Source: Escherichia coli | Lineage (GTDB): Bacteria > Pseudomonadota > Gammaproteobacteria > Enterobacterales > Enterobacteriaceae | Reading direction: 5' to 3' (one strand) | Assembly: GCF_046105845.1 (NCBI RefSeq) | Contig: NZ_CP151004.1 | DNA length: 64,000 nt | Shown: in pieces, positions 8,036-43,470 of the stretch | Numbering within the stretch: position 1 is the stretch's first letter | Layout of the letters: the number at the start of each line of letters is the position of its first letter | Translations under genes and position numbers: made by a program | Notes under the pieces: generated by a model | Told to the model about the DNA's origin: nothing | Databases searched by the model: none | What the model saw: the letters and a program-made list of their open reading frames with translations, nothing else

Positions 8036-8043
8036 TAGTGGTT

Positions 8044-8127: not shown

Positions 8128-8189
8128 AACAGGTACAAACGCCACGATAAAAAAATGGCACTGAAGGTTAAATACCCGACTAAATCAGT

Positions 8190-8300: not shown

Positions 8301-8304
8301 AGAC

Positions 8305-8793: not shown

Positions 8794-9033
8794 TTTAACC
8801 GTCCTGTTTCGTGTTGCATCTGCGTTGACTGCACATACTCACTCTGGTCACTTACTTATGTAAGCTCCCGGAGATTCGTAAGTTTGTCAACTTGCTGAAA
8901 CCCGAAACAGTTAGGTTAAAGATAACAAGATATTAGAATCAGGCCGGGGCGTATCGCGCTCCGTAAACACGGTCGTACATCCAGCCGGTAGCCTGGTTCC
9001 TTGCATTGAGTGATGTACGGAGTTTATAGAGCA

Positions 9034-10248: not shown

Positions 10249-10275
10249 TCGGTATCGGAATCAGGAGAATTTATA

Positions 10276-10662
10276 ATGGCTTACAGCGAAAAAGTTATCG
10301 ACCATTACGAGAATCCGCGTAACGTGGGTTCCTTTGACAACAACGACGAGAACGTCGGCAGCGGCATGGTGGGTGCACCGGCATGTGGCGACGTGATGAA
10401 GTTGCAGATTAAAGTCAACGATGAAGGTATCATTGAAGACGCGCGTTTTAAAACTTACGGCTGCGGTTCTGCTATCGCTTCCAGCTCCCTGGTCACCGAA
10501 TGGGTGAAAGGGAAGTCTCTCGACGAAGCGCAGGCGATCAAAAACACCGATATTGCTGAAGAACTTGAACTGCCTCCGGTGAAAATTCACTGTTCTATTC
10601 TGGCAGAAGACGCGATCAAAGCCGCCATTGCGGACTATAAAAGCAAACGTGAAGCAAAATAA
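10276..10662 (+). CDS. iscU: Fe-S cluster assembly scaffold
   Basis: 128 aa; conserved Cys motifs GAPACGD, YGCGSAIAS, LPPVKIHCS. Confidence 0.96.
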   Translation: MAYSEKVIDHYENPRNVGSFDNNDENVGSGMVGAPACGDVMKLQIKVNDEGIIEDARFKTYGCGSAIASSSLVTEWVKGKSLDEAQAIKNTDIAEELELPPVKIHCSILAEDAIKAAIADYKSKREAK

Positions 10663-10678
10663 GAGTTGAGGTTTGGTT

Positions 10679-11002
10679 ATGTCGATTACACTGAGCGACA
10701 GTGCAGCAGCGCGAGTAAATACCTTTCTGGCTAACCGCGGCAAAGGGTTTGGCCTGCGTCTGGGCGTGAGAACCTCCGGATGTTCAGGTATGGCTTATGT
10801 ACTGGAATTTGTTGACGAACCGACGCCGGAAGACATCGTGTTTGAAGACAAAGGCGTGAAAGTCGTGGTCGATGGCAAAAGCCTGCAATTTCTGGACGGT
10901 ACGCAGCTGGACTTCGTAAAAGAAGGCCTGAACGAAGGGTTTAAATTCACCAACCCGAACGTCAAAGATGAGTGTGGTTGCGGCGAAAGCTTCCACGTTT
11001 GA
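10679..11002 (+). CDS. iscA: Fe-S cluster insertion protein (A-type carrier)
   Basis: 107 aa starting [14 protein letters not shown]-terminal CGCGESF. Confidence 0.95.
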
Positions 11003-11097
11003 TGCGCATACCGATAACCCCACCGTGGTCGCCTGCGCGTGGGGTTTGTTTTACCTGATTCGCCGTTATCGCGGCGGATCGCAGCCCTGAGAATGTT

Positions 11098-11613
11098 ATG
11101 GATTACTTCACCCTCTTTGGCTTGCCTGCCCGTTATCAACTCGATACCCAGGCACTGAGCCTGCGTTTTCAGGATCTACAACGTCAGTATCATCCTGATA
11201 AATTCGCCAGCGGAAGCCAGGCGGAACAACTCGCCGCCGTACAGCAATCTGCAACCATTAACCAGGCCTGGCAAACGCTGCGTCATCCGTTAATGCGCGC
11301 GGAATATTTGCTTTCTTTGCACGGTTTTGATCTCGCCAGCGAGCAGCATACTGTGCGCGACACCGCGTTCCTGATGGAACAGCTGGAACTGCGCGAAGAA
11401 CTGGACGAGATCGAACAGGCGAAAGATGAAGCGCGGCTGGAAAGCTTTATCAAACGTGTGAAAAAGATGTTTGATACCCGCCATCAGTTGATGGTTGAAC
11501 AGTTAGACAACGAGACGTGGGACGCGGCGGCGGATACCGTGCGTAAGCTGCGTTTTCTCGATAAACTGCGAAGCAGTGCCGAACAACTCGAAGAAAAACT
11601 GCTCGATTTTTAA
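11098..11613 (+). CDS. hscB: co-chaperone HscB (J-domain)
   Basis: 171 aa; J-domain HPD motif (QRQYHPDKF). Confidence 0.95.
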
Positions 11614-11629
11614 TTTCTGGAAGCTAAAC

Positions 11630-13480
11630 ATGGCCTTATTACAAATTAGTGAACCTGGTTTGAGTGCTGCGCCGCATCAGCGTCGTCTGGCGGCCGGTAT
11701 CGACCTGGGCACAACCAACTCGCTGGTGGCGACAGTGCGCAGCGGTCAGGCCGAAACGTTAGCCGACCATGAAGGCCGTCACCTGCTGCCGTCTGTTGTT
11801 CACTATCAACAGCAAGGGCATTCGGTGGGTTATGACGCGCGTACTAACGCAGCGCTTGATACCGCCAACACCATTAGTTCTGTTAAACGCCTGATGGGGC
11901 GCTCGCTGGCTGATATCCAGCAACGCTATCCGCATCTGCCTTATCAATTCCAGGCCAGCGAAAACGGCCTGCCGATGATTGAAACGGCGGCGGGGCTGCT
12001 GAACCCGGTGCGCGTTTCTGCGGACATCCTCAAAGCACTGGCGGCGCGGGCAACTGAAGCCCTGGCAGGCGAGCTGGATGGTGTAGTTATCACCGTTCCG
12101 GCGTACTTTGACGATGCCCAGCGTCAGGGCACCAAAGACGCGGCGCGTCTGGCGGGCCTTCACGTCCTGCGCTTACTTAACGAACCGACCGCTGCGGCTA
12201 TCGCCTACGGGCTGGATTCCGGTCAGGAAGGCGTGATCGCCGTTTATGACCTCGGTGGCGGGACGTTTGATATTTCCATTCTGCGCTTAAGTCGCGGCGT
12301 GTTTGAAGTGCTGGCGACCGGCGGTGATTCCGCGCTCGGCGGCGATGATTTCGACCATCTGCTGGCGGATTACATTCGCGAGCAGGCGGGCATTCCTGAT
12401 CGTAGCGATAACCGCGTTCAGCGTGAACTGCTGGATGCCGCCATTGCAGCCAAAATCGCGCTGAGCGATGCGGACTCCGTGACCGTTAACGTTGCGGGCT
12501 GGCAGGGCGAAATCAGCCGTGAACAATTCAATGAACTGATCGCGCCACTGGTAAAACGAACCTTACTGGCTTGTCGTCGCGCGCTGAAAGACGCTGGCGT
12601 AGAAGCTGATGAAGTGCTGGAAGTGGTGATGGTTGGCGGTTCTACTCGCGTGCCGCTGGTGCGTGAACGAGTAGGCGAATTTTTCGGTCGTCCACCGCTG
12701 ACTTCTATCGACCCGGATAAAGTCGTCGCTATTGGCGCGGCGATTCAGGCGGATATTCTGGTGGGTAACAAGCCGGACAGCGAAATGCTGTTGCTGGATG
12801 TGATCCCGCTGTCGCTGGGCCTCGAAACGATGGGCGGCCTGGTGGAGAAAGTGATTCCGCGTAATACCACTATTCCGGTGGCGCGCGCTCAGGATTTCAC
12901 CACCTTTAAAGATGGTCAGACGGCGATGTCTATCCATGTAATGCAGGGTGAGCGTGAACTGGTGCAGGACTGCCGCTCGCTGGCGCGTTTTGCACTGCGT
13001 GGTATCCCGGCGCTACCGGCTGGCGGCGCGCATATTCGCGTAACGTTCCAGGTCGATGCCGACGGTCTTTTGAGCGTGACGGCGATGGAGAAATCCACCG
13101 GCGTTGAGGCGTCTATTCAGGTCAAACCGTCTTACGGTCTGACCGATAGCGAAATCGCTTCGATGATCAAAGACTCAATGAGCTATGCCGAGCAGGACGT
13201 AAAAGCCCGTATGCTGGCAGAACAAAAAGTAGAAGCGGCGCGTGTGCTGGAAAGTCTGCACGGCGCGCTGGCTGCTGATGCCGCGCTGTTAAGCGCCGCA
13301 GAACGTCAGGATATCGACGATGCTGCCGCTCACCTGAGTGAAGTGGCGCAGGGCGATGATGTTGACGCCATCGAACAAGCGATTAAAAACGTAGACAAAC
13401 AAACCCAGGATTTCGCCGCTCGCCGCATGGACCAGTCGGTTCGTCGTGCGCTGAAAGGCCATTCCGTGGACGAGGTTTAA
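11630..13480 (+). CDS. hscA: Hsp70-type chaperone HscA
   Basis: Start at [10 protein letters not shown] (616 aa); Hsp70 motifs [20 protein letters not shown]-track start 11576 overlaps hscB and is rejected. Confidence 0.95.
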
Positions 13481-13481
13481 T

Positions 13482-13817
13482 ATGCCAAAGATTGTTATTT
13501 TGCCTCATCAGGATCTCTGCCCTGATGGCGCTGTTCTGGAAGCGAATAGTGGTGAAACCATTCTCGACGTTGCGCTGCGTAACGGTATCGAGATTGAACA
13601 CGCCTGTGAAAAATCCTGTGCTTGCACCACCTGCCACTGCATCGTTCGCGAAGGTTTTGACTCGCTGCCGGAAAGCTCAGAGCAGGAAGACGACATGCTG
13701 GACAAAGCCTGGGGACTGGAGCCGGAAAGCCGTTTAAGCTGCCAGGCGCGCGTTACCGACGAAGATTTAGTGGTCGAAATCCCGCGTTACACTATCAACC
13801 ATGCGCGTGAGCATTAA
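13482..13817 (+). CDS. fdx: [2Fe-2S] ferredoxin
   Basis: 111 aa; Cys ligands [12 protein letters not shown]. Confidence 0.95.
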
Positions 13818-13828
13818 CAGAGGTTAGT

Positions 13829-14029
13829 ATGGGACTTAAGTGGACCGATAGCCGCGAAATTGGCGAAGCACTGTACGATGCGTATCCCGATCTTGATCCG
13901 AAAACGGTTCGATTCACCGATATGCATCAGTGGATTTGCGATCTGGAAGATTTCGACGACGACCCGCAGGCATCCAACGAGAAAATCCTCGAAGCGATTT
14001 TGTTAGTCTGGCTGGACGAAGCCGAATAA
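13829..14029 (+). CDS. iscX: Fe-S assembly protein IscX
   Basis: 66-aa acidic protein at end of isc operon. Confidence 0.9.
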
Positions 14030-14273
14030 TTTCCGCGTCATGCTTCACGCCGCAGATGCGTTGGCTGCGCTCGTTCACCCCAGTCACATAGTTATCTATG
14101 CTCCTGGGGCTTCACTCACTTGCCGCGTGATTCGGCCTTTTGGCCTCACCCCTCCGGGGCCAGCGCAAGCGCTGTTCAAAACGCAATGCGTTTTGTCCTG
14201 CAACGCGAATCATTTAGCGGAAAAATCCTGGGGCTGCCAACTGGCGGCCCTTTTACAAAGAAGGATAACTAGA

Positions 14274-15557
14274 ATGACAGAAGCGATGAAGATTACCCTC
14301 TCTACCCAACCTGCCGACGCGCGCTGGGGAGAAAAAGCGACTTACAGCATTAATAATGATGGCATTACCCTGCATTTGAACGGGACAGACGATCTGGGGC
14401 TGATCCAGCGTGCGGCGCGCAAGATTGACGGTCTGGGCATCAAGCATGTTCAGTTAAGCGGTGAAGACTGGGATGCGGATCGCTGCTGGGCATTCTGGCA
14501 AGGTTACAAAGCCCCGAAAGGCACACGTAAAGTGGAGTGGCCGGATCTGGACGATGCCCAGCGCCAGGAACTGGATAACCGCCTGATGATCATCGACTGG
14601 GTGCGTGACACCATTAACGCACCGGCGGAAGAGCTGGGTCCATCGCAACTGGCACAGCGTGCTGTTGATCTGATCAGCAACGTCGCAGGCGATCGTGTGA
14701 CTTATCGGATCACCAAAGGTGAAGATCTGCGTGATCAAGGTTATATGGGGCTGCACACGGTCGGGCGCGGTTCAGAACGTTCTCCGGTATTGCTGGCGCT
14801 GGATTACAACCCAACAGGCGATAAAGAAGCGCCAGTGTACGCGTGCCTGGTTGGTAAAGGCATCACCTTTGATTCCGGCGGCTACAGCATCAAACAGACC
14901 GCATTTATGGACTCGATGAAGTCGGACATGGGCGGCGCGGCAACGGTTACCGGAGCGCTGGCGTTTGCCATTACGCGCGGACTGAACAAGCGCGTGAAGC
15001 TGTTCCTCTGCTGTGCGGATAACCTGATCAGCGGCAATGCGTTCAAGCTGGGCGATATCATTACCTATCGCAACGGTAAAAAAGTTGAAGTGATGAACAC
15101 CGATGCGGAAGGGCGTCTGGTGCTGGCCGATGGCCTGATTGATGCCAGTGCGCAGAAACCGGAACTGATCATTGATGCGGCGACCCTCACCGGGGCGGCG
15201 AAAACTGCGCTGGGTAATGATTATCACGCGCTGTTCAGTTTTGACGATGCGCTTGCCGGTCGCTTGCTGGCGAGTGCCGCGCAGGAGAATGAACCGTTCT
15301 GGCGTCTGCCGCTGGCGGAGTTCCACCGCAGCCAGCTGCCGTCTAACTTTGCGGAACTGAACAATACCGGAAGCGCGGCGTATCCGGCAGGCGCGAGCAC
15401 GGCGGCGGGCTTCCTGTCGCACTTTGTTGAGAACTATCAGCAAGGCTGGCTGCATATCGACTGCTCGGCGACTTACCGTAAAGCGCCGGTTGAACAGTGG
15501 TCTGCGGGTGCTACGGGACTTGGTGTGCGCACGATTGCTAATCTGTTAACGGCGTAA
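14274..15557 (+). CDS. pepB: peptidase B (M17 aminopeptidase)
   Basis: Start at [10 protein letters not shown] (427 aa); M17 motif [11 protein letters not shown]-track start 14040 is an extension. Confidence 0.92.
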
Positions 15558-15564
15558 ACGTCTT

Positions 15565-15640
15565 ATTTGGCCTACAAAATTGCGAAAATCCAATAGATTG
15601 AGATTCCCTTGTAGGCCTGATAAGCGTAGCGCATCAGGCA
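15565..15640. repeat. REP/BIME-type palindromic element
   Basis: GGCCTACAA...TTGTAGGCC inverted repeat followed by GCCTGATAAGCGTAGCGCATCAGGC. Confidence 0.75.
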
Positions 15641-15675
15641 CTTGTGCCCCGAACGTTGAATGAATTGTGGTTCTT

Positions 15676-16452
15676 ATGTCCGAAACAAAAAACGAACTTG
15701 AAGATCTGCTGAAAAAAGCAGCAATCGAACCGGCGCACCGCCCGGCCTTTTTCCGTACTCTACTGGAATCCACCGTCTGGGTGCCGGGTACGGCGGCGCA
15801 GGGCGAGGCTGTGGTTGAAGATAGCGCGCTTGATTTACAGCACTGGGAAAAAGAAGACGGCACCAGCGTCATTCCTTTTTTTACCTCGTTAGAAGCACTT
15901 CAACAGGCGGTTGAAGACGAACAGGCATTTGTCGTAATGCCCGTTCGCACATTGTTTGAGATGACCCTTGGCGAAACGCTCTTCCTTAATGCCAAACTGC
16001 CAACCGGTAAAGAATTTATGCCGCGTGAAATCAGTTTGTTGATTGGTGAAGAAGGAAATCCGCTGAGCAGCCAGGAAGTACTGGAGGGCGGTGAATCGCT
16101 GATATTATCGGAAGTCGCAGAGCCACCAGCACAAATGATTGATTCTCTCACCACCTTATTTAAAACTATTAAGCCGGTGAAGCGTGCTTTTATTTGTTCA
16201 ATTAAAGAGAACGAAGAGGCACAGCCTAATTTACTTATTGGCATTGAAGCCGATGGTGATATCGAAGAAATTATTCAGGCGGCGGGAAGTGTAGCGACCG
16301 ATACATTACCTGGCGATGAACCCATCGATATTTGTCAAGTGAAAAAAGGGGAAAAAGGAATTAGCCACTTTATTACCGAACATATTGTGCCATTCTATGA
16401 ACGTCGCTGGGGTGGTTTTTTGCGTGACTTTAAACAGAACCGGATAATCTAA
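15676..16452 (+). CDS. sseB: enhanced serine sensitivity protein SseB
   Basis: Start at MSETKNELEDLL (258 aa); synteny downstream of pepB. Confidence 0.9.
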   Translation: MSETKNELEDLLKKAAIEPAHRPAFFRTLLESTVWVPGTAAQGEAVVEDSALDLQHWEKEDGTSVIPFFTSLEALQQAVEDEQAFVVMPVRTLFEMTLGETLFLNAKLPTGKEFMPREISLLIGEEGNPLSSQEVLEGGESLILSEVAEPPAQMIDSLTTLFKTIKPVKRAFICSIKENEEAQPNLLIGIEADGDIEEIIQAAGSVATDTLPGDEPIDICQVKKGEKGISHFITEHIVPFYERRWGGFLRDFKQNRII

Positions 16453-16753
16453 AATATGCCGCCCCAAAGGGCGGCATTCGGGCTTACCTGCTGTTCTGAA
16501 GGTTGTTAACCACCAATAAATTGTTGCCGGAGAGATTCCGGTTATTATTTACCTCGGTTAACAGCGCACCAGAAACAATAAGTACGATACAAAAGCACCG
16601 TATCTTCATTGTGCGGTCCATGCGAAGACCGCATCACGACAGCACCACTGGCGATATTGCCGCGATAGCAAGCGCTGAGACGCGCGTGCCCTAACGGTCG
16701 CGGAACATCCTTTCCTTAAGCCAGCGCCCGCTTGCGAGACGGCGGAAAGGTCC
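16450..16753 (-). ncRNA. candidate RyfA-like transcript (putative type I toxin mRNA)
   Basis: Minus-strand -10-like TATTAT (16766-16761) and minus-strand terminator hairpin ATGCCGCCC-tttg-GGGCGGCAT + ATTTT (16477-16451) delimit ~304 nt; position matches the sseA-sseB intergenic sRNA locus known in enterobacteria (from memory). Confidence 0.4.
16484..16609 (-). CDS. candidate small hydrophobic protein (41 aa; 45 aa from ATG 16621)
   Basis: Minus-strand ORF MKIRCFCIVLIVSGALLTEVNNNRNLSGNNLLVVNNLQNSR with one predicted TM-like segment; weak SD; in frame with an upstream strongly SD-preceded mini-ORF (16708-16691) separated by two stops. Confidence 0.3.
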   Translation of the reverse strand: MKIRCFCIVLIVSGALLTEVNNNRNLSGNNLLVVNNLQNSR

Positions 16754-16797
16754 GCAGTGGATAATACACTAACAGAACAATAATAACTCTCTTTTGC

Positions 16798-16930
16798 TTG
16801 ACAAAAAGAGGGTTACTGGCGAGTATTGTCTCCGCTGAGACGCGCTTGCATTACTACGGTAATACAACCTGCTGGAAAGGCCGCGAACCGGACCAGCAAC
16901 AAAAAACCGCCTGATTTTGGCGGTTTTTTG
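16798..16930 (+). ncRNA. candidate small RNA unit 1 (promoter to intrinsic terminator; antitoxin-like)
   Basis: Perfect -35 TTGACA (16798-16803), 17-bp spacer, GAGTAT (16821-16826); terminator ACCGCC-tgatttt-GGCGGT + T6 (16901-16930); 5' end 16833-16845 identical to plus strand 16673-16685. Confidence 0.4.
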
Positions 16931-17073
16931 TTGTTTAAAGAAAATGAAATTACACGTTTAAGTAATATCTTTTACCAGTTAGTATATTTTAATATTAAGC
17001 GGGATTTTTTTATATTTGTCTGAATTCGGACTGATAAGCCAAATGAATTCAAAATCTATCCTTTTTTATCTAC

Positions 17074-17198
17074 TTGACATCGTTGATGCATAAAGCGAGT
17101 ATTGAGTAGACGAGATACACTTGCAGTAATACAACCTGCTGGAAAGGCCGCGAACCAGACCAGCAATAAAAAAACCGCCAAATTCGGCGGTTTTTTTA
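17074..17198 (+). ncRNA. candidate small RNA unit 2 (paralogous tandem copy of unit 1)
   Basis: Same architecture: TTGACA (17074-17079), 17-bp spacer, GAGTAT (17097-17102); ~73-bp block 17126-17198 ~88% identical to 16857-16930 including terminator CCGCC-aaattc-GGCGG + T7. Confidence 0.3.
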
Positions 17199-17213
17199 TT
17201 GCCTGTAAAAAGC

Positions 17214-18059
17214 TTATTTCAATGGCTCAACCGGTAAATCTGCCCGTGCGCCCCATTCACTCCATGCGCCGTCGTACAGTTTCACGTTTGGCACATCCAG
17301 CGTCGCGAGTGCCAACAAAACCACGGCTGCCGTTACACCAGAGCCGCAGCTGACGATAATCGGTTTGTCATAGCTGACGCCGCGACCAAAAAATATCGCA
17401 TCCAGTTCATCGGTCGTTTTTAGTTCGCCTTCGCGCACCAGTTCCGTCCACGGAACGTTCAATGCACCGGGAATATGTCCGCGACGTAAACCTGGGCGAG
17501 GTTCATCAACTTCTGCGTTAAAACGTGCAGCCGGGCGGGCATCAATAATTTGCGCCGTATTTTCATGGCTTGCCAATAACACATCGGTGACTTTCACCAC
17601 GGCTTCAGGATTAAACGTGGCGTTAAACTCTCCTTCCGGCAGCTCTACTGCCCCTTCTTCTAACAGCAGATCATCACGCTGCCAGCCTGCAAGTCCACCC
17701 CCCAGAATCGACACTTTCTCTACACCAAAGGTGCGCAGCATCCACCATGCTCGTGGGGCTGAGAATAGATTACCTTCGTCATAGATAATCAGGTGCTTAT
17801 CCTGGTTAACGCCTAATTCACGCATCGCCACGGCGAACGTTTCCGGGCGCGGCAGCATGTGCGGAAGCGGGGAAGTGTGATCAGAAAGCGCTTCGATATC
17901 AAAAAATACTGCGCCGGGAATATGTCCATTCAGATACTCCTGAGCAACGTTACGATCTTCCTGTCCAGGCGACGCCATGCGGGCATCGATAATCTGAATT
18001 TCCGGGTCATCAATATGTTCGGCGAGCCAGTCGGCTCCTACAAACCATGTCGTGGACAT
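17214..18059 (-). CDS. sseA: 3-mercaptopyruvate sulfurtransferase (rhodanese)
   Basis: Start at MSTTWFVGADW (281 aa); two rhodanese domains, active-site CGSGVTA; ORF-track start 18218 is an extension. Confidence 0.93.
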   Translation of the reverse strand: MSTTWFVGADWLAEHIDDPEIQIIDARMASPGQEDRNVAQEYLNGHIPGAVFFDIEALSDHTSPLPHMLPRPETFAVAMRELGVNQDKHLIIYDEGNLFSAPRAWWMLRTFGVEKVSILGGGLAGWQRDDLLLEEGAVELPEGEFNATFNPEAVVKVTDVLLASHENTAQIIDARPAARFNAEVDEPRPGLRRGHIPGALNVPWTELVREGELKTTDELDAIFFGRGVSYDKPIIVSCGSGVTAAVVLLALATLDVPNVKLYDGAWSEWGARADLPVEPLK

Positions 18060-18265
18060 AGGCATCTCCATTTTTGCCGGGGTTAGGCTAAATTGTCGGA
18101 TGTTTAGTGAAAGGCGACAAGCAAAAGAGGCTGATTTGGCTGTCTGAGCCACAATTCTCACTAAAATTCGGATTGTATGGGCGTGATACTGAATTACATA
18201 ACGTAAATTCTCACGCATAATAATTATTCGACGTTGCTAACGGGCCATTGTGGCAGGGATGAAAA

Positions 18266-21200
18266 ATGAAAAAGTTACGCGTAGCCGCCTGCATACTAAT
18301 GCTGGCGCTGGCAGGGTGCGACAACAACGATAACGCGCCAACAGCGGTGAAAAAAGATGCGCCTTCTGAAGTTACTAAAGCGGCCTCTTCAGAAAACGTG
18401 AGTTCAGCAAAACTTTCCGCGCCGGAGCGACAAAAACTGGCCCAACAGAGTGCCGGTAAGGCGCTGACATTGCTGGATCTCTCTGAAGTTCAACTTGATG
18501 GCGCAGCCACGCTGGTGCTGACGTTCTCCATTCCTCTCGACCCGGATCAGGATTTCTCACGCGTTATCCATGTCGTCGATAAGAAAATCGGCAAAGTGGA
18601 TGGTGCCTGGGAGCTGTCAGATAATCTTAAAGAGTTGCGTTTACGCCACCTCGAACCGAAACGTGATTTGATCGTCACTATTGGCAAGGAGGTCAAAGCA
18701 CTCAACAACGCAACCTTCAGTAAAGATTACGAAAAAACTATAACTACCCGCGATATCCAACCCAGCGTAGGTTTTGCCAGCCGTGGCTCGTTGTTACCTG
18801 GTAAAGTTATTGAAGGGCTGCCGGTAATGGCGCTCAACGTTAACAATGTCGATGTTAACTTCTTCCGTGTGAAGCCCGAATCTCTGCCTGCATTCATTAG
18901 CCAATGGGAATACCGCAATTCGCTGGCGAACTGGCAGTCTGACAAACTGCTGCAGATGGCGGATCTGGTCTACACCGGACGGTTTGATCTCAATCCTGCG
19001 CGTAACACCCGTGAAAAATTATTGCTGCCGCTGGGCGATATCAAACCGCTTCAGCAGGCAGGCGTGTATCTGGCTGTGATGAATCAGGCTGGACGTTACG
19101 ATTACAGTAATCCCGCGACGCTGTTTACGTTAAGTGATATCGGCGTTTCAGCTCACCGTTATCACAATCGTCTGGATATCTTTACCCAAAGTCTGGAAAA
19201 CGGCGCGGCCCAGCAAGGAATAGAAGTCTCTTTATTAAATGAGAAAGGGCAGACTCTGACTCAGGCAACCAGTGATGCTCAGGGGCATGTGCAGCTGGAA
19301 AATGATAAAAATGCGGCATTACTGCTGGCGCGTAAAGACGGTCAGACAACGCTACTCGATTTAAAACTTCCGGCGCTGGACTTAGCAGAATTTAACATTG
19401 CTGGCGCGCCAGGCTATAGCAAACAGTTTTTCATGTTTGGCCCGCGCGATCTTTATCGCCCAGGTGAAACAGTCATCCTCAATGGTTTATTGCGTGATGC
19501 AGATGGTAAAGCATTGCCCGATCAACCCATCAAGTTAGACGTGATTAAACCCGACGGGCAGGTACTCAGGAGCGTCGTTAGTCAGCCGGAGAATGGCCTC
19601 TACCACTTTACCTGGCCACTCGATAGCAATGCGGCAACCGGTATGTGGCATATTCGCGCTAACACGGGCGATAACCAGTATCGGATGTGGGATTTCCACG
19701 TCGAAGATTTTATGCCAGAGCGCATGGCGCTGAATCTGACCGGTGAGAAAACCCCGCTAACGCCGAAAGATGAAGTGAAATTCTCCGTGGTGGGGTACTA
19801 CCTGTATGGTGCACCTGCTAATGGTAATACTTTGCAAGGGCAACTTTTCCTGCGCCCACTGCGTGAAGCTGTGTCAGCCTTACCTGGTTTTCAATTCGGC
19901 GATATAGCTGCCGAAAATCTTTCCCGCACGCTGGATGAAGTTCAGTTGACGCTGGATGATAAAGGGCGTGGCGAAGTTTCTACAGAAACCCAGTGGAAGG
20001 AAACGCATTCCCCATTACAGGTTATTTTCCAGGGTAGTTTGCTGGAATCGGGCGGTCGCCCGGTGACGCGCCGCGCTGAGCAGGCTATCTGGCCTGCCGA
20101 TGCATTGCCGGGGATCCGTCCGCAGTTCGCCTCGAAATCGGTTTACGATTATCGCACTGACAGCACGGTGAAACAGCCCATTGTTGATGAAGGCAGTAAC
20201 GCCGCTTTTGACATCGTTTATAGCGATGCGCAAGGCGTAAAAAAAGCCGTGTCGGGCTTGCAGGTGCGCCTGATTCGCGAACGCCGCGATTACTACTGGA
20301 ACTGGTCAGAAGATGAAGGCTGGCAGTCACAGTTTGATCAAAAAGATCTGATTGAAAATGAACAAACTCTGGATCTTCAGGCGGATGAAACCGGTAAGGT
20401 CAGTTTCCCGGTAGAGTGGGGCGCTTATCGTCTGGAAGTCAAAGCGCCGAATGAAGCGGTCAGTAGTGTGCGTTTCTGGGCTGGCTATAGCTGGCAGGAC
20501 AACAGCGACGGGAGCGGTGCCGTGCGACCTGACCGTGTCACGCTGAAACTGGATAAAGCCAGTTATCGCCCTGGCGATACCATTAAGTTGCATATTGCCG
20601 CGCCAACGGCGGGTAAAGGTTATGCGATGGTCGAGTCCAGTGAAGGGCCGCTGTGGTGGCAAGAGATTGATGTTCCGGCTCAAGGGCTGGATCTGACGAT
20701 TCCGGTCGATAAAACCTGGAATCGTCATGATCTGTATTTAAGTACGCTGGTGGTACGTCCTGGCGATAAATCTCGCTCCGCGACGCCAAAACGTGCGGTT
20801 GGGGTGTTGCATCTGCCGCTTGGTGATGAAAACCGTCGCCTCGATCTGGCGCTGGAAACCCCCACCAAAATGCGCCCCAATCAGCCATTAACCGTGAAAA
20901 TTAAAGCCAGCAATAAAAACGGTGAGATGCCAAAACAGGTGAATGTGCTGGTGTCTGCCGTTGATAGCGGTGTGCTGAATATTACTGATTACGTTACCCC
21001 CGATCCGTGGCAGGCGTTCTTTGGTCAGAAACGCTATGGTGCAGACATTTACGATATTTACGGTCAGGTCATTGAAGGTCAGGGGCGTCTGGCAGCTCTG
21101 CGTTTTGGTGGCGATGGTGATGAGCTGAAACGTGGTGGTAAACCGCCGGTCAATCACGTCAATATTGTCGCGCAGCAGGCGCTGCCGGTAACGCTCAACG

Positions 21201-38017: not shown

Positions 38018-39595
38018 ATGACGGAAAACATTCATAAGCATCGCATCCTCATTCTGGACTTCGGTTCTCAGTACACTCAACTGGTTGCGCGCCGCGTGCG
38101 TGAACTGGGTGTTTACTGCGAACTGTGGGCGTGGGATGTGACAGAAGCACAAATTCGTGACTTCAACCCAAGCGGCATTATTCTTTCCGGCGGCCCGGAA
38201 AGCACCACCGAAGAAAACAGCCCGCGTGCGCCGCAGTATGTTTTTGAAGCAGGCGTACCGGTATTCGGCGTTTGCTATGGCATGCAGACCATGGCAATGC
38301 AGTTGGGCGGTCACGTTGAAGCCTCTAACGAACGTGAATTTGGCTACGCGCAGGTTGAAGTCGTAAACGACAGCGCACTGGTTCGCGGTATTGAAGATGC
38401 TCTGACCGCAGACGGTAAACCTCTGCTCGATGTCTGGATGAGCCACGGCGATAAAGTTACCGCTATCCCGTCCGACTTCGTCACCGTAGCCAGCACCGAA
38501 AGCTGCCCGTTTGCCATTATGGCTAACGAAGAAAAACGCTTCTATGGCGTACAGTTCCACCCGGAAGTGACTCACACCCGTCAGGGTATGCGCATGCTGG
38601 AGCGTTTTGTGCGTGATATCTGCCAGTGTGAAGCCCTGTGGACGCCAGCGAAAATTATCGACGATGCTGTAGCTCGCATCCGCGAGCAGGTAGGCGACGA
38701 TAAAGTCATCCTCGGCCTCTCTGGTGGTGTGGATTCCTCCGTAACCGCAATGCTGCTGCACCGCGCTATCGGTAAAAACCTGACTTGCGTATTCGTCGAC
38801 AACGGCCTGCTGCGTCTCAACGAAGCAGAGCAGGTTCTGGATATGTTTGGCGATCACTTTGGTCTGAACATTGTTCACGTTCCGGCAGAAGATCGCTTCC
38901 TGTCAGCGTTGGCCGGCGAAAACGATCCGGAAGCAAAACGTAAAATCATCGGGCGCGTTTTCGTTGAAGTATTCGATGAAGAAGCACTGAAACTGGAAGA
39001 CGTGAAGTGGCTGGCGCAGGGCACTATCTACCCTGACGTTATTGAATCTGCCGCATCTGCAACCGGTAAAGCACACGTCATCAAATCTCACCACAACGTG
39101 GGCGGCCTGCCGAAAGAGATGAAGATGGGCCTGGTTGAACCGCTGAAAGAGCTGTTCAAAGACGAAGTGCGTAAGATTGGTCTGGAGCTGGGCCTGCCGT
39201 ACGACATGCTGTACCGTCACCCGTTCCCGGGACCAGGCCTCGGCGTTCGTGTACTGGGCGAAGTGAAGAAAGAGTACTGCGACCTGCTGCGCCGTGCTGA
39301 CGCCATCTTCATTGAAGAACTGCGTAAAGCGGACCTGTACGACAAAGTCAGCCAGGCGTTCACCGTCTTCCTGCCGGTACGTTCCGTTGGTGTAATGGGC
39401 GATGGTCGTAAGTATGACTGGGTTGTTTCTCTGCGTGCTGTCGAAACCATCGACTTTATGACCGCACACTGGGCGCATCTGCCGTACGATTTCCTCGGTC
39501 GCGTTTCCAACCGCATTATCAATGAAGTGAACGGTATTTCCCGCGTGGTGTATGACATCAGCGGCAAGCCGCCAGCTACCATTGAGTGGGAGTGA
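38018..39595 (+). CDS. guaA: GMP synthase (glutamine-hydrolysing)
   Basis: 525 aa; GATase motifs GVCYGMQ, ATP-PPase SGGVDSS; ends ...IEWE. Confidence 0.96.
39581..39595 (+). repeat. left copy of islet-flanking direct repeat (functional guaA 3' end)
   Basis: ATTGAGTGGGAGTGA, 13/15 identical to right copy; encodes IEWE-stop. Confidence 0.75.
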
Positions 39596-39634
39596 GGCTA
39601 TTATTTAAACTATTGTTTTATTTGATTTAGTGAG

Positions 39635-39675
39635 TGCCATTGATGATATTGACTGCATTATCAATGGCATTTTTC
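39635..39675 (+). terminator. islet-borne intrinsic terminator now serving guaA
   Basis: 10-bp stem TGCCATTGAT / ATCAATGGCA with 15-nt loop, followed by TTTTT. Confidence 0.55.
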
Positions 39676-39913
39676 ATGGTATAAGGCCGACGCTGAATCG
39701 AAGATATAGCAAATACCATGTGACCCTATCAGCAAATGCCATGGTATCGACAACCGGGGGCATTGCAGCGCTGTGCTGATGCCATCGATGCCCGCTTTTG
39801 GTCAGAACCGCTCTCTCGACCCAAGCCTCCAGATCGTTAAATATGCGCCAGAGGAGCACCTCGTGATCGAAATTGTGAACAAGACAGCCGCCGCTCGGAA
39901 TCGAAGTATCCAT
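39674..39913 (-). CDS. hypothetical 79-aa ORF inside islet (possible gene remnant)
   Basis: ORF only; no recognisable motifs; Trp-rich; no clear SD. Confidence 0.15.
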   Translation of the reverse strand: MDTSIPSGGCLVHNFDHEVLLWRIFNDLEAWVERAVLTKSGHRWHQHSAAMPPVVDTMAFADRVTWYLLYLRFSVGLIP

Positions 39914-39980
39914 ATGGGTGAATAAAGTTTGCGGAAAACACGCTGAGAAAATAGAAAAGCGTCAATGAAGGGACATAGCA

Positions 39981-41261
39981 ATGGCGATTAACGGAGAGGA
40001 CGGTGTTAGTGCAGTCACCGTGGATGAACTACTCAAGCAAGGCCTTCGGATACCGAACTATCAACGCCCATACAGTTGGGAAGTATCGACCGCTCTACAA
40101 CTGGTGGATGATCTTAGCGAAGCTCTTCGAGATACCGAAAGAAAAGATATTCCCTATGTTTTGGGTGCAATCATTCTTCACGATGATGGTGAGTATCTCA
40201 ATGTAGTCGACGGACAGCAACGTCTGCTGACTTTGCGAATGATTCTTGCGGCCTTAGATCCGATAAATCATCAGATTTCGGTGTCTGGTAACAGCGAAAC
40301 TCCTGTCTCCCTGGTTTGGATAGAGCTTCAAAGGCGCCTGTCGCAGTTGGAAGATAAAAAAGAATTTTTGGATTTTATCTGTCACAAATGTCAGTTGGTG
40401 CGTATTGTGACGGACGATATTGATGAGGCATTTCGTGTCTTTGATTCCCAGAACTATCGCGGCAAACCGCTTGCCCCTCATGACTTGCTCAAAGCACACC
40501 ACCTCCGCGAAATGCACGATGAGTCCGCTGCTATGAAAGTGGCTGTCGTTGAGGCTTGGGAAGCCGTAAATGATGAGGATCTGGACAGGCTTTTTTCTAC
40601 TTTTTTATACCGGATATCCAAGTGGTCACGAGGCGAAAGCTCGCTCGAATTTGCTATTCGGGACATCGGGATGTTTAAGGGAATTTCATCACGATCCCAC
40701 AGATCATTTTCGCCAAATCTGCGATATCACCTTGCAGCACAAGCCGCTATGCCACTTCTAAGTGCATGGGCGGTGTCCTCTACACATGATGCACGAAATG
40801 CCGGGCGCAGCCGCTTTCAGCTTGATGCCCCGATAATCGCTGGGCGCTCATTTTTCGAGATGGTGACATTCATGCTTGACGAATTGAAGATACTGGAAAA
40901 AGAGGTTATCGACAGAGGTTTCAAAAACTTTGGCCCATCTCAAAGTCGCTACCGCTACGTGTACGAATTGTTCATTGCCGCGCTGCTTTGCTATACAAAC
41001 AAGTTTGGCGATGAAGATGTGGATGAAGTGCGAAATAGATTATTCGCATGGGCATATGCCTTGCGGGTCGAGTTACTTCGTGTGCAATTTGTATCTGCTG
41101 ACAACCGAGCTCGAGGTAAAAACGATGCAAATAAATCGCCTTTTGTTTTGCTACGCAACGCGATGACTGGAAGTGTTGTCCGCAAACTTCCAATAGCAAG
41201 TCAGCCATACAACGATAACCACGAAAAGGAACTCGTTGCTTTTATCAAGGGGCTGCAATGA
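39981..41261 (+). CDS. DUF262 (ParB/Srx-like NTP-binding nuclease-family N-terminal domain) protein, no DUF1524
   Basis: Motifs IPNYQRPYSW (40050-40079), DGQQRL (40209-40226), FRVFDSQNYRGKPLAPHDLLKAH; SD AAGGGA upstream; 426 aa. Confidence 0.85.
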   Translation: MAINGEDGVSAVTVDELLKQGLRIPNYQRPYSWEVSTALQLVDDLSEALRDTERKDIPYVLGAIILHDDGEYLNVVDGQQRLLTLRMILAALDPINHQISVSGNSETPVSLVWIELQRRLSQLEDKKEFLDFICHKCQLVRIVTDDIDEAFRVFDSQNYRGKPLAPHDLLKAHHLREMHDESAAMKVAVVEAWEAVNDEDLDRLFSTFLYRISKWSRGESSLEFAIRDIGMFKGISSRSHRSFSPNLRYHLAAQAAMPLLSAWAVSSTHDARNAGRSRFQLDAPIIAGRSFFEMVTFMLDELKILEKEVIDRGFKNFGPSQSRYRYVYELFIAALLCYTNKFGDEDVDEVRNRLFAWAYALRVELLRVQFVSADNRARGKNDANKSPFVLLRNAMTGSVVRKLPIASQPYNDNHEKELVAFIKGLQ

Positions 41262-43210
41262 GCAAGAAGGAGTTGAGACCCGAACTGATAACAGTAGGCA
41301 AGCTATTCACGGGCTATTATCTGATTCCTATTTATCAACGGAACTATGCTTGGCGGGCCGAACAGATTGAGCAACTTATCAGCGATATTCAAGGCTCGGT
41401 GGTTGGGGGCCAGGACGACTATTTTCTTGGGAACCTTGTTGTAATCAAGCGGGGTAGAGAGGACGAGTTCGAGGTCATAGATGGACAACAACGACTTACA
41501 ACCCTCTATCTGCTTCTGACCTTCCTGGAGCAAGACGGTGAGGGTGGGAAGCTGTCGATTGGCCATGCAGGCCACTTGCAATATGAGTCGCGCGCACGGG
41601 CAACGGAAGCCCTGCGGCGAGTAGCACAGGAGGCGGCTAAGGGGCACGTCCGACCGCAGGGCTCCACGAGTAATGCAGATGCTGGCATCCATGAAGGCTA
41701 CAGCATCATCAATCAGTTCTTCAAACAAAATGAAACCCTTAATCGCTCACGCGAAAAATTCTCCGATTTCTTGCTAAAGAAGGTTACTGTCGTCCGTGCC
41801 TCGCTGCCACCCAATACCGACCTCAATCGCTACTTCGAGATCATGAACACTCGTGGGCAGCAACTCAAGCAGGTTGATATTGTTAAGGCTCGCCTGATGA
41901 GCAAGCTGCCCAATCAATATGAACGCGAATGCTTCGCGTGGGTTTGGGATGCCTGTGCTGACATGGATTCTTATGTCCAGATGTCTCTGACCCGTGGTGA
42001 CACCAGTTTACGAAACAAAGTATTTGGCGATGAATGGTCCTGGCTGGAGGTGACCAGCTTCGCGTCGCTAATGGAAAGTCGTCCGCAATCCGACATCAGT
42101 TCATTAAGGCAATCCTCCGAAGGGGTATCGTTGTCCTTGGATGAGGCGTTGTCAAAATACGCTAAAGAGATCGAGTCAAATTCCACTGAAGACGAGGGCA
42201 ACGAGCGGTTTCGTTCGACTATTGAGTTTCCGGCCTTTCTGCTACACGTTCTAAGAATTATGAAAGGCGATGAGGTCGAAGACGAAGGCCAGCTTGACGA
42301 CAAGCGCCTCATCAAGTCATTTGACGACGCCGTAAATAATGTACCCGATGCTAAAGCCGATTGGGTGCGTAGCTTTGCATTTATGCTTCTTAAGTGCCGT
42401 AACCTCTTCGATGGCTTCATCTTGAAGCGTCAATTCACGGCGAACATCGGTGACGATGGCGATTGGTCTCTCCAGCGATTGAAGAAAGGCGGTGCGGACA
42501 AGAAGCCAGCCCCGACGTACATCCATGTTTTCTCGGCCAGCAATGGAAACTTGGAGGAGGACAGCGGTGCTGACCCACATACCCGAGATGTATTGTTGCT
42601 TCAGTCCATGCTTCGGATTACCTACACTTCTCCGCGAACGATGCACTGGATTACCAAAGTTCTTCGCTGGCTATCCGTTAAAGCCCCTCAAGACGCGAAA
42701 CATGCGGATCTTGCCGATTTGTTGAAGGGGTATGCCCGCAGCAAGGTTAAAGAGACATTCCCCTTTGAGGAAGATCAGCAACCACAAGGGTTTGGTATCA
42801 GCCGTATCGTCTTTTCATACCTCGACTATCTTCTGTTGAGTGATTCCTCAAAACGAGATTTCAAATTTCAGTTCAGAACTTCCATTGAGCACTTTTATCC
42901 ACAGCATCCGGACAAAGAACAGTCGGGCGCGGCTGTTTCAGGTTCTAGCCTTAACCTGCTTGGCAACCTCGCGCTCGTAAGCGTCAGCGCGAACTCAAAA
43001 TTCAGCAATAGCCTTCCCAGAGCGAAGGCCGAAAACTTCAAGGATACGATTGAACTTCAAAGTCCCAAGCTCAAGAGAATGGCGGAAATCGCTCGAAATA
43101 CAAGCTGGGACGATCAGCAGATAACAGCACATCATGAAGAGATGGTGACATTGCTTCGTGATGATGTAAGTCTGGTGGAGGCAAGCGGAAGATCCTACCC
43201 GGGGCGTTGA
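41258..43210 (+). CDS. GmrSD-like fusion protein: N-terminal DUF262 + C-terminal DUF1524 (His-Me finger/HNH-like endonuclease)
   Basis: N-term IPIYQRNYAW, DGQQRL (41480-), FEIMNTRGQQL...DIVKARL; C-term SIEHFYPQH (EH at 42887-42892) and LLGNLALVSVSAN; 650 aa; ATGA start/stop overlap with upstream gene. Confidence 0.85.
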   Translation: MSKKELRPELITVGKLFTGYYLIPIYQRNYAWRAEQIEQLISDIQGSVVGGQDDYFLGNLVVIKRGREDEFEVIDGQQRLTTLYLLLTFLEQDGEGGKLSIGHAGHLQYESRARATEALRRVAQEAAKGHVRPQGSTSNADAGIHEGYSIINQFFKQNETLNRSREKFSDFLLKKVTVVRASLPPNTDLNRYFEIMNTRGQQLKQVDIVKARLMSKLPNQYERECFAWVWDACADMDSYVQMSLTRGDTSLRNKVFGDEWSWLEVTSFASLMESRPQSDISSLRQSSEGVSLSLDEALSKYAKEIESNSTEDEGNERFRSTIEFPAFLLHVLRIMKGDEVEDEGQLDDKRLIKSFDDAVNNVPDAKADWVRSFAFMLLKCRNLFDGFILKRQFTANIGDDGDWSLQRLKKGGADKKPAPTYIHVFSASNGNLEEDSGADPHTRDVLLLQSMLRITYTSPRTMHWITKVLRWLSVKAPQDAKHADLADLLKGYARSKVKETFPFEEDQQPQGFGISRIVFSYLDYLLLSDSSKRDFKFQFRTSIEHFYPQHPDKEQSGAAVSGSSLNLLGNLALVSVSANSKFSNSLPRAKAENFKDTIELQSPKLKRMAEIARNTSWDDQQITAHHEEMVTLLRDDVSLVEASGRSYPGR

Positions 43211-43400
43211 CTTCTTTGAATAACCGCTTTTGGACGAAAGTCCCTTGTGGAGTGCAAGTTGTCAGTCTAAAAGCGTTTTGCGTCAGGCGACACGATCAGT
43301 ACAGCTCCCAGGTTTTCTTACCATGGTATTTTGTGTGGTATCGACATGCAAATATAATGCTATTCTATTGATTTTACAGTGTTTTAAGGCGGCATTAATC

Positions 43401-43415
43401 ATCGAGTGGGAATGA
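43401..43415 (+). repeat. right copy of islet-flanking direct repeat (displaced ancestral guaA 3' end)
   Basis: ATCGAGTGGGAATGA; would encode IEWE-stop; immediately followed by the A-tract/hairpin/T-tract terminator. Confidence 0.75.
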
Positions 43416-43436: not shown

Positions 43437-43470
43437 AACAAAACCCTCTGTTACTACAGAGGGTTTTTTA
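43437..43470. terminator. bidirectional intrinsic terminator (ancestral guaA / yfgI)
   Basis: AACAAAA-CCCTCTG-ttacta-CAGAGGG-TTTTTT; A-run upstream and T-run downstream. Confidence 0.8.

What the first reader, a model, noticed from the sequence alone, without database searches (positions are those of the whole stretch)
39981..41261. Gene A: stand-alone DUF262 protein (426 aa) with intact NTP-binding-type motifs and an unassigned C-terminal half
The N-terminal ~200 aa carry the three signature DUF262 motifs (IPNYQRPYSW; DGQQRL with the conserved Arg; F..DSQNYRG...DLLKAH). There is no DUF1524/HNH signature. The C-terminal ~200 aa are basic and Ala/Arg-rich with no motif I recognise. In GmrSD/BrxU/SspE-type enzymes DUF262 is the nucleotide-dependent sensor/regulatory domain, so a separate DUF262 protein upstream of a full GmrSD-like gene could be a specificity/sensor subunit, a regulator, or a decoy.
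Basis: partly seen in the sequence, partly recalled or inferred. Interest (0 to 1): 0.75.

Follow-up and report, generated by a model that had tools for sequence, protein, structure and literature searches.

The report
TgvA-type partner of a two-gene restriction enzyme

Summary
Window 39981-41261 (+) is an intact 426-aa ORF with the three DUF262 motifs and no nuclease domain. It overlaps by 4 bp (ATGA) a 650-aa DUF262+DUF1524 gene at 41258-43210.

The "unassigned" C-terminal half is Pfam DUF7834 (E 1e-54). A confident model of it is all-helical, and its three best solved-structure matches are the GmrSD-family enzymes DndI, BrxU and SspE.

Both genes are homologous to the two subunits of two tested two-gene Type IV restriction systems:
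- V. cholerae TgvAB: A 27% identical, profile E 7e-38; B 28%.
- E. coli ECOR17 GmrS1/GmrSD2: A 31%, B 33%.

In those systems both genes and both DGQQR motifs are required, and glucosyl-hmC T-even phages are restricted. A 98%-identical Providencia pair is listed among published TgvAB homologs. A near-identical E. coli allele sits in published clusters CLS_016/017.

All 76 related loci with room downstream (best 80 species hits) have a B-type gene immediately after the A-type gene. The two proteins co-diverge (r = 0.93).

The 3.8-kb cassette lies at the guaA 3' end between att-like repeats. It is also on 468 plasmids, mostly Klebsiella.

Verdict: already known; how the partner subunit acts is still unresolved.

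The parts
39581..39595 (+). Left att-like repeat ATTGAGTGGGAGTGA. It is the last codons and stop of guaA and marks the left edge of the 3.8-kb cassette.
   Evidence: Homology to K-12 stops at 39595 and resumes at 43400, with 16 bp of K-12 sequence matched on both sides. Junction sequences were read.
39596..39980 (+). Non-coding leader of the cassette. It holds a hairpin (39635-39669) followed by a T-run. The 79-aa minus-strand ORF (39674-39913) is probably not a gene.
   Evidence: The hairpin is inverted repeat I4. The sequence was read. The ORF frame is broken or changed in 95-98% identical relatives. No consensus promoter was found on the + strand.
39981..41261 (+). Gene A: TgvA/GmrS1-type nuclease-less subunit, 426 aa.
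   Evidence: ORF. Pfam GmrSD_N + DUF7834. 31% identity to ECOR17 GmrS1, E 3e-57. 27% identity to TgvA, E 2e-28, and profile E 7e-38.
40035..40505 (+). DUF262 / GmrSD_N (ParB-like NTPase) domain of A, residues 19-175. DGQQR lies at nt 40209-40223.
   Evidence: Pfam E 1.5e-27. Q28, R29, D77, G78, Q80, R81, F154, D155, Q157 and N158 are invariant in 51 sequences. DGQQR is present in 62/62 A-type proteins.
40536..41222 (+). DUF7834 all-helical domain of A, residues 186-414. It resembles the helical middle domain of GmrSD-family enzymes.
41258..43210 (+). Gene B: TgvB/GmrSD2-type catalytic subunit, 650 aa, translationally coupled to A through an ATGA overlap.
   Evidence: ORF. Overlap. Pfam GmrSD_N 15-214 and GmrSD_C 521-631. 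33% identity to ECOR17 GmrSD2, E 4e-90. 28% identity to TgvB, E 2e-34.
42818..43150 (+). DUF1524 / GmrSD_C His-Me finger nuclease domain of B. The catalytic E544-H545 pair is at nt 42887-42892.
   Evidence: Pfam E 4e-14. EH position. E544, H545, P548, N570, N579 and N584 are invariant in 8 B-type proteins.
43401..43415 (+). Right att-like repeat ATCGAGTGGGAATGA, a displaced copy of the guaA 3' end, marking the right edge of the cassette.
43440..43467 (+). Native guaA intrinsic terminator, now downstream of gene B. It is the only terminator-like site the scan found on the + strand.
   Evidence: The same sequence follows guaA directly in K-12.

Best explanation
Gene A is the nuclease-less, obligate partner subunit (TgvA / GmrS1 type) of a two-gene, GmrSD-family, modification-dependent (Type IV) restriction enzyme. 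Gene B (TgvB / GmrSD2 type) is the catalytic subunit.

A keeps an intact ParB-like DUF262 nucleotide-binding/hydrolysis domain. It also has a basic helical domain (DUF7834) that resembles the helical middle domain of DndI, BrxU and SspE. In effect it is a GmrSD paralogue without the His-Me finger.

Most likely mechanism: A and B are made in fixed proportion by translational coupling and form a hetero-oligomer. Both DUF262 nucleotide sites take part in recognising hypermodified phage DNA, most probably glucosyl-5-hydroxymethylcytosine of T-even phages. They then license the single DUF1524 nuclease of B to cut that DNA.

What rests on what:
- Shown here: domain content, homology of both subunits to TgvAB and GmrS1/GmrSD2, strict synteny, co-divergence and motif conservation.
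- Shown only in homologues, by others: both genes are required, the DGQQR motifs of both are required, the nuclease motif of B is required, and the target is glucosyl-hmC DNA.
- Inferred: physical A-B complex formation, the licensing step, and activity and target of this particular allele.
For: Architecture: Pfam A = GmrSD_N + DUF7834; B = GmrSD_N + GmrSD_C. The two ORFs overlap in ATGA.

Homology of A:
- to ECOR17 GmrS1: 31% identity, E 3e-57, extending into the C-terminal half, A residues 22-375;
- to TgvA: 27% identity, E 2e-28; profile-profile probability 99.95%, E 7e-38 over 334 columns reaching into the C-terminal half.

Homology of B: to GmrSD2 33%, E 4e-90; to TgvB 28%, E 2e-34.

Published surveys already hold this system:
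- A 98%-identical Providencia rettgeri RB151 pair is hit #102 of the TgvAB MacSyFinder table (PMC11411939 Table S5).
- E. coli alleles WP_016246209 and WP_000037308 (about 96% identical at DNA level) are in clusters CLS_017 and CLS_016 of Silas et al. 2025, which I infer to be one of their three two-gene GmrSD architectures.

Published genetics: neither TgvA nor TgvB alone protects; DGQQR mutants of either abolish defence, as do TgvB H571A and N602A; phage escapers lose glucosylation. In ECOR17, neither gene alone protects, both together protect and are toxic when induced, and E582A/H583A abolishes defence.

- Six distinct loci at 32-68% identity all show A followed by B, or a cut ORF.
- Among the best 80 species hits, all 76 loci with room downstream carry a B-type gene right after A. 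That is 69 by strict criteria, 5 with an over-extended start call and 2 fragmented.
- A and B distances correlate, r = 0.93 across 62 pairs, with 0 of 999 permutations as high.
- DGQQR and FxSQN are intact in 62/62 A-type proteins.
- Between alleles, A shows 25 synonymous against 10 non-synonymous codon changes.

Against: - No experiment on this allele is available to me. A representative of CLS_016/017 was synthesised and tested by Silas et al., but the outcome for that pair is only in a figure I could not read.
- No direct evidence of an A-B complex exists for any member; the papers only suggest it.
- Profile-profile comparison of the A family with the B family aligns only the DUF262 part. 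It does not align DUF7834 to B's linker.
- Identity to the characterised systems is only 27-33%, so the DNA modification recognised could differ. GrwAB, another two-gene relative, also recognises 7-deazaguanine DNA.
Confidence: 0.78

Rival explanations
1. A is a negative regulator or antitoxin. It holds the nuclease of B in check until infection, and its loss would make B toxic or constitutively active.
For: The ECOR17 and CT596 GmrSD systems are toxic when over-expressed, so some restraint on the nuclease is plausible. Tight translational coupling and strict pairing are also typical of toxin-antitoxin pairs.
Against: In ECOR17, over-expressing GmrSD2 alone gave no protection and no toxicity was reported. 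Toxicity appeared only when both genes were induced together. TgvB alone is likewise inactive. That is the behaviour of an activator or co-subunit, not an inhibitor. The strictly conserved DGQQR site in A would not be needed for a simple inhibitor.
Confidence: 0.07
2. A is a decoy or guard for phage anti-restriction proteins (IPI*-like injected proteins). It soaks up or senses inhibitors aimed at DUF262 enzymes, so that B stays active or becomes activated.
For: The TgvAB authors raise this possibility. T4 carries three injected inhibitors, each specific for one GmrSD subtype, and Ip3 blocks the ECOR17 two-gene system. B shows relatively more non-synonymous change than A between alleles: 39 synonymous to 34 non-synonymous, against 25 to 10. 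That hints at an arms race acting on B.
Against: B alone does not protect even against phages lacking the known inhibitor: in ECOR17, T2, T6 and T4 delta-ip2 delta-ip3 are restricted only by the pair. DGQQR mutants of TgvA abolish defence, so A needs its nucleotide site. A decoy would be expected to drift at catalytic residues, yet these are invariant.
Confidence: 0.08
3. The cassette in this genome is an inactive relic: a passenger on an integrative element or plasmid with no current defence function.
For: The cassette has no recombinase of its own and no consensus promoter was found upstream of A. In some E. coli genomes an IS3-family element interrupts the island (H11-H13).
Against: Both ORFs are intact, with all catalytic motifs present. 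Synonymous changes outnumber non-synonymous ones in A. The cassette is kept at 96-99% identity in 78 complete E. coli genomes, three other genera and 468 plasmids.
Confidence: 0.07

Closest known systems
GmrS1/GmrSD2 of E. coli ECOR17 (GmrSD_ECOR17; Silas et al., Nat Commun 2025, PMC12373910), and that paper's sister clusters CLS_016/CLS_017
   Same: The gene order and domain content are the same: a DUF262-only protein followed by a DUF262+nuclease protein. A is 31% identical to GmrS1 over both halves and B is 33% identical to GmrSD2. Near-identical alleles of the window's two proteins are themselves members of clusters CLS_017 and CLS_016 in that paper's table.
   Different: It is a different subtype from the ECOR17 pair itself, which is CLS_003/004. 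The catalytic EH pair is at 544-545 here, against 582-583 there. Whether T4 Ip3 or any other injected protein inhibits this subtype, and whether the tested CLS_016/017 representative was active, could not be read from the held text.
TgvAB of Vibrio cholerae VPI-2 (VC1767/VC1766; PMC11411939, PMC11014532)
   Same: It is a two-protein GmrSD-family Type IV system with overlapping ORFs, and the first gene has DUF262 only. A is homologous to TgvA beyond the DUF262 domain (27% identity; hhalign E 7e-38 over 334 columns). B is 28% identical to TgvB. The Providencia ortholog of this cassette is listed as a TgvAB homolog.
   Different: TgvAB is embedded in a Type I R-M operon, whereas this cassette stands alone at the guaA 3' end or on plasmids. 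Only the first 399 residues of TgvA and TgvB were available for comparison. TgvA diverges in the region corresponding to the conserved FKG motif of this family (F232-K233-G234).
Single-chain GmrSD-family enzymes: Eco94GmrSD/CT596 GmrSD, BrxU, SspE, DndI and HEC-06
   Same: They share the DUF262 domain with QR, DGQQR and FxxxN motifs. A's helical domain has DndI, BrxU and SspE as its best structural matches. B has the full DUF262-linker-DUF1524 layout.
   Different: Those enzymes work as single polypeptides (homodimers in the BrxU and SspE structures). Here a second, nuclease-less paralogue always accompanies the enzyme, and in the tested homologues it is required. The PADLOC HEC-06, Orf5 and SspE profiles match only the N-terminal ~80-200 residues of A and B.
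GrwAB of WASA-lineage V. cholerae (PMC12137116)
   Same: It is another two-gene GmrSD-like system in which a nuclease-bearing protein and a DUF262-only protein are both required, along with both DGQQR motifs.
   Different: The gene order is reversed, with the nuclease protein first. According to the authors, the accessory protein GrwB shares nothing with TgvA beyond DUF262. No sequence comparison was made here.

Membership tests
TgvAB / GmrS1-GmrSD2 two-gene GmrSD Type IV restriction systems | Two adjacent, co-oriented, overlapping or abutting genes. The first encodes DUF262 without a nuclease; the second encodes DUF262 + DUF1524/His-Me finger. | tested here: met
   ORFs and ATGA overlap. Pfam content of A and B.
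TgvAB / GmrS1-GmrSD2 two-gene GmrSD Type IV restriction systems | The accessory subunit is homologous to TgvA/GmrS1 beyond the DUF262 domain. | tested here: met
   Against GmrS1: 31% identity, E 3e-57, A residues 22-375. Against TgvA: 27% identity, E 2e-28, A residues 22-364; hhalign probability 99.95%, 334 columns. Only TgvA residues 1-399 were available.
TgvAB / GmrS1-GmrSD2 two-gene GmrSD Type IV restriction systems | The catalytic subunit is homologous to TgvB/GmrSD2. | tested here: met
   Against GmrSD2: 33% identity over the full length, E 4e-90. Against TgvB residues 1-399: 28% identity, E 2e-34.
TgvAB / GmrS1-GmrSD2 two-gene GmrSD Type IV restriction systems | QR, DGQQR and FxxxN motifs intact in both subunits, and an (E/D)HxxP...N...N His-Me motif in the second. 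| tested here: met
   A: Q28, R29, D77-R81, F154-N158. B: Q27, R28, D75-R79, F193-N197, E544, H545, P548, N570, N579, N584.
TgvAB / GmrS1-GmrSD2 two-gene GmrSD Type IV restriction systems | Both genes are necessary and together sufficient for defence, and the target is sugar-modified hmC phage DNA. | not testable with these tools
   Shown for TgvAB and the ECOR17 system only. No readable result for this subtype.
TgvAB / GmrS1-GmrSD2 two-gene GmrSD Type IV restriction systems | Recovered by the published family models or clusterings. | tested here: met
   The Providencia RB151 ortholog is hit #102 in Table S5 of PMC11411939. WP_016246209 and WP_000037308 are in CLS_017 and CLS_016 of PMC12373910.
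Single-chain GmrSD (Eco94GmrSD, BrxU, SspE, HEC-06) | One polypeptide carrying both DUF262 and DUF1524. | tested here: not met
   Gene A has no DUF1524 by Pfam and no beta-beta-alpha element in the model. Gene B has the layout, but its homologues are not sufficient alone.
Single-chain GmrSD (Eco94GmrSD, BrxU, SspE, HEC-06) | Full-length match to the PADLOC HEC-06 or SspE profiles. | tested here: not met
   The best matched stretch of A covers only profile positions 16-93 of 558. For B it reaches at most about position 242 of 558.
Split GmrS + GmrD as first described for E. coli CT596 | A DUF262-only protein paired with a DUF1524-only protein. | tested here: not met
   B carries its own DUF262 domain. 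The CT596 enzyme was later re-interpreted as a single chain.
GrwAB | The nuclease-bearing gene comes first, and the accessory protein has DUF262 plus several unrelated domains. | tested here: not met
   The order here is accessory first. The authors state that GrwB and TgvA differ outside DUF262. GrwB itself was not compared by sequence.
ParB/Srx-like nucleotide-binding fold (DUF262 clan) | The N-terminal domain adopts the ParB N-terminal/sulfiredoxin fold with the nucleotide-binding motif. | tested here: inconclusive
   Foldseek of the full model lists ParB, Noc, PadC and Srx only at E ~1-3. The strong matches are the DUF262 enzymes DndI and SspE (E ~1e-4). Assignment to the clan rests on the Pfam family match and on the literature.

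The most novel reading that the evidence does not exclude
The accessory subunit, through its basic helical DUF7834 domain, is the DNA-modification specificity module, playing the role HsdS plays for HsdR. On this reading an A-B heteromer carries two nucleotide sites but only one nuclease. It would then work differently from homodimeric GmrSD enzymes, for example by nicking or by needing two heteromers to meet. A and B would have to co-evolve as a matched pair, and swapping A subunits would retarget the enzyme. None of the published work has settled what the accessory subunit does, and nothing here excludes this.
Probability: 0.15. Interest if true: 0.6.

Novelty: already known. Interest (0 to 1): 0.22.

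Why it matters
Two-gene GmrSD-type enzymes are a widespread layer of immunity against phages with hypermodified DNA. The scan of one genome per species found at least 578 hits from Proteobacteria to an archaeon, and this cassette alone is on 468 plasmids, mostly conjugative and mostly Klebsiella. That matters for phage therapy with T4-like phages and for understanding why T4 injects several anti-restriction proteins.

This locus adds no new kind of system. The points of modest added value are these:
- The accessory subunit's second half is a defined, conserved domain (DUF7834) that looks like the helical middle domain of GmrSD enzymes.
- Pairing of A-type and B-type genes is essentially obligate.
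- This subtype travels as a compact att-flanked cassette between the guaA 3' end and plasmids.

Why a complete-looking GmrSD needs a nuclease-less paralogue remains open in the literature.

Tried and rejected
- NCBIfam gave no family for A or B.
- PADLOC gave only N-terminal partial matches to HEC-06, Orf5 and SspE, so neither protein is a member of those single-gene models.
- A sequence search of PDB with A found only DUF262 N-terminal matches. A profile of the C-terminal half found nothing in PDB.
- hhalign of the A family against the B family aligned only DUF262. I could not show by sequence that DUF7834 derives from the GmrSD linker.
- Foldseek of the C-terminal model against AFDB50 returned essentially only other A-type proteins, so it gave no functional clue.
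The full-length alignment was used instead.
- I first suspected identity with the ECOR17 system. That was rejected because the catalytic EH pair is at 544-545, not 582-583, and identity is only 31-33%.
- The 79-aa antisense ORF upstream of A was considered as a third component. It was rejected because its frame is not conserved in 95-98% identical relatives.
- No phage genome encodes a relative of A.
- The promoter scan gave no convincing promoter for A, and the number of sites was below the shuffled expectation.
- The activity result for CLS_016/017 in Silas et al. could not be recovered; it is only in figures, and the 'Selected' sheet was truncated.

Full report
**Setting.** The window is an Escherichia coli chromosome segment carrying der, xseA, guaB, guaA, then yfgI, yfgH, yfgG, pdeF and ppx. 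Against K-12, a 3.8-kb block is inserted between the guaA stop codon and the guaA terminator. Homology stops at 39595 and resumes at 43400. The block holds two genes: gene A (39981-41261) and gene B (41258-43210). It is present in 78 of 5,426 complete E. coli genomes.

**Check of the observation.**
- Pfam assigns residues 19-175 to GmrSD_N/DUF262 (E 1.5e-27) and finds no DUF1524.
- The C-terminal half is basic (pI 9.3) and moderately rich in Ala and Arg.
- That half is not orphan sequence. It matches Pfam DUF7834 with E 1e-54.
- Gene B has GmrSD_N and GmrSD_C/DUF1524, with the EH catalytic pair at residues 544-545. Its ATG overlaps the TGA of gene A.

**What it is.** The literature search found that this arrangement has been described three times since 2024.
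- TgvAB of Vibrio cholerae VPI-2: TgvA has DUF262 only and TgvB has DUF262+DUF1524, with ORFs overlapping by 8 bp. Neither gene alone protects. DGQQR mutants of either, and TgvB H571A or N602A, abolish defence. Phage escapers have lost glucosylation of hmC.
- GmrS1/GmrSD2 of E. coli ECOR17: neither gene alone protects, the pair restricts T2, T6 and T4 lacking ip3, co-induction is toxic, E582A/H583A is dead, and T4 Ip3 is its specific inhibitor.
- GrwAB: the order is reversed and the accessory protein is different.

I recovered the ECOR17 and V. cholerae sequences from the papers' supplements.
- Gene A is 31% identical to GmrS1 (E 3e-57) across both halves.
- Gene A is 27% identical to TgvA (E 2e-28). 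A 51-sequence profile of the A family aligns to TgvA over 334 columns with E 7e-38.
- Gene B is 33% identical to GmrSD2 (E 4e-90) and 28% identical to TgvB (E 2e-34).

The system itself is already catalogued.
- The 98%-identical pair of Providencia rettgeri RB151 is hit #102 in the TgvAB homolog table.
- E. coli alleles WP_016246209 and WP_000037308, about 96% identical at DNA level, are members of clusters CLS_017 and CLS_016 of Silas et al.
- That paper describes three two-gene GmrSD architectures and names CLS_003/004 and CLS_018/019. From the paired accessions I infer that CLS_016/017 is the third.
- Representatives of all 15 groups were synthesised and tested. Whether this pair scored as active is only in figures I could not read.

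**The C-terminal half.**
- The full-length AlphaFold2 model is confident (pLDDT 92.5). Its best PDB matches are DndI, SspE and BrxU.
- Modelled alone, the C-terminal domain is an all-helical bundle (pLDDT 92.6, pTM 0.91).
- I read this as follows. DUF7834 corresponds to the helical middle domain of GmrSD enzymes, so A is a GmrSD paralogue without the nuclease.
- This rests on structure only. Sequence profiles of the A and B families align in DUF262 alone, PDB profile searches find nothing, and the tool does not report which target residues were aligned.

**Linkage of A and B.**
- In six distinct loci at 32-68% identity, from Bordetella avium, Pseudoduganella and metagenomes, the A-type gene is followed at once by a GmrSD_N+GmrSD_C gene or by an ORF cut at the contig end.
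- A scan of one genome per species gave at least 578 hits, spread over Proteobacteria, Actinobacteria, Firmicutes, Bacteroidota, Spirochaetes and a Methanobrevibacter.
- Of the best 80 loci, 69 have a B-type gene within -60 to +200 nt downstream. Five more have it with an over-extended start call, two have it fragmented, and four end too soon to tell. That makes 76 of 76 informative loci.
- Most junctions overlap or lie within about 13 nt.
- A and B distances correlate at r = 0.93 over 62 pairs, with 0 of 999 permutations as high. DGQQR and FxSQN are intact in all 62 A-type proteins.
- Between alleles, A shows 25 synonymous and 10 non-synonymous codon differences. B shows 39 and 34.

**Mechanism.** The best-supported reading is that A and B form a hetero-oligomeric, nucleotide-gated, modification-dependent nuclease. 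Both DUF262 sites are needed, and only B cuts. Complex formation and the licensing step are inferred. The requirement for both genes and both DGQQR motifs is shown only in homologues.

The rival readings fit less well.
- A negative-regulator role fits poorly, because B-type proteins alone are inactive rather than toxic.
- A decoy role fits poorly, because the pair is needed even against phages without the known inhibitor, and A's nucleotide site is essential and invariant.
- A relic is unlikely given intact ORFs, purifying selection and wide conservation.

**Mobility (side finding).**
- The cassette is bounded by imperfect repeats of the guaA 3' end: ATTGAGTGGGAGTGA on the left and ATCGAGTGGGAATGA on the right.
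- The same cassette with the same edges follows guaA in Providencia rettgeri and Shewanella indica. It lies elsewhere in Buttiauxella agrestis.
- It occurs at 96% identity on 468 PLSDB plasmids. Of these, 464 are from Klebsiella and most are conjugative; the one examined is IncFIB/IncFII. There too it is flanked by a GAGTGGG core.
- In E. coli CFSAN051542, a 17-kb element lies between guaA and the cassette. It carries a tyrosine recombinase, RepA/RepC, Trb/Tra genes, a relaxase, a Type II R-M system and an Abi gene.
- The cassette has no recombinase of its own. It may be moved in trans.

**Verdict.** However, the system belongs to a published family and this subtype is already listed in two published surveys. 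Novelty: already known. Interest is low to modest. The open question is how the nuclease-less subunit works, and this locus does not make that question newly testable.

Noticed in passing
window 39581-39595 and 43401-43415; L013, L014, L018, L094: The 3.8-kb A/B cassette is flanked by imperfect direct repeats with a GAGTGGGA core, which is the 3' end of guaA. The same edges occur after guaA in Providencia and Shewanella, at a non-guaA site in Buttiauxella, and on Klebsiella plasmids. It looks like an att-flanked cassette with no recombinase of its own.
   Followed up: partly
PLSDB plasmids, e.g. L094 (NZ_CP094452.1) 7001-10812: The cassette, encoding the same proteins WP_016246209 and WP_000037308, is on 468 plasmids at 96% identity. 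Of these, 464 are from Klebsiella and most are conjugative. In the one plasmid examined (IncFIB/IncFII) it lies between sopAB and umuDC.
   Followed up: partly
L093 (E. coli CFSAN051542) 2641-19365: In this strain a ~17-kb integrative mobilisable element sits between guaA and the cassette. It carries a tyrosine recombinase, RepA/RepC, TrbJ/L, a relaxase, a PIN protein, a Type II R-M system, an Abi protein and an antidote protein. The guaA 3' end is therefore a hotspot where defence elements accumulate in tandem.
   Followed up: partly
window 39674-39913 (-): A 79-aa ORF lies antisense in the leader upstream of gene A. Its reading frame is shifted or truncated in 95-98% identical relatives, so it is probably not a gene.
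   Followed up: yes
window 39635-39669: A 13-bp-arm hairpin (TGCCATTGATGAT / ATTATCAATGGCA) followed by TTTTT lies 40 nt after the guaA stop, inside the cassette. It may act as a replacement terminator for guaA. The scan missed it because its loop is 9 nt.
   Followed up: no
window 39925-39941 and 41173-41189: A 17-nt inverted repeat (94% complementary) pairs a site 40 nt upstream of the gene A start with a site near the end of gene A, about 70 nt before the gene B start. Its significance is unknown.
   Followed up: no
window 41258-43210 compared with L002 and L003: Between E. coli alleles, gene B has nearly as many non-synonymous as synonymous codon differences (34 to 39), whereas gene A has far fewer (10 to 25). 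This could reflect diversifying pressure on the nuclease subunit from phage inhibitors.
   Followed up: no
window 43230-43415 (+): A small 61-aa ORF at the right end of the cassette ends in ...IIEWE*. This reproduces the C-terminal residues of GuaA and is a by-product of the duplicated guaA 3' end.
   Followed up: partly
E. coli MB15, HN257 and ECN24 (hits H11-H13): In these strains an IS3-family ISSen4 element is inserted within the island, splitting the match into two pieces.
   Followed up: no
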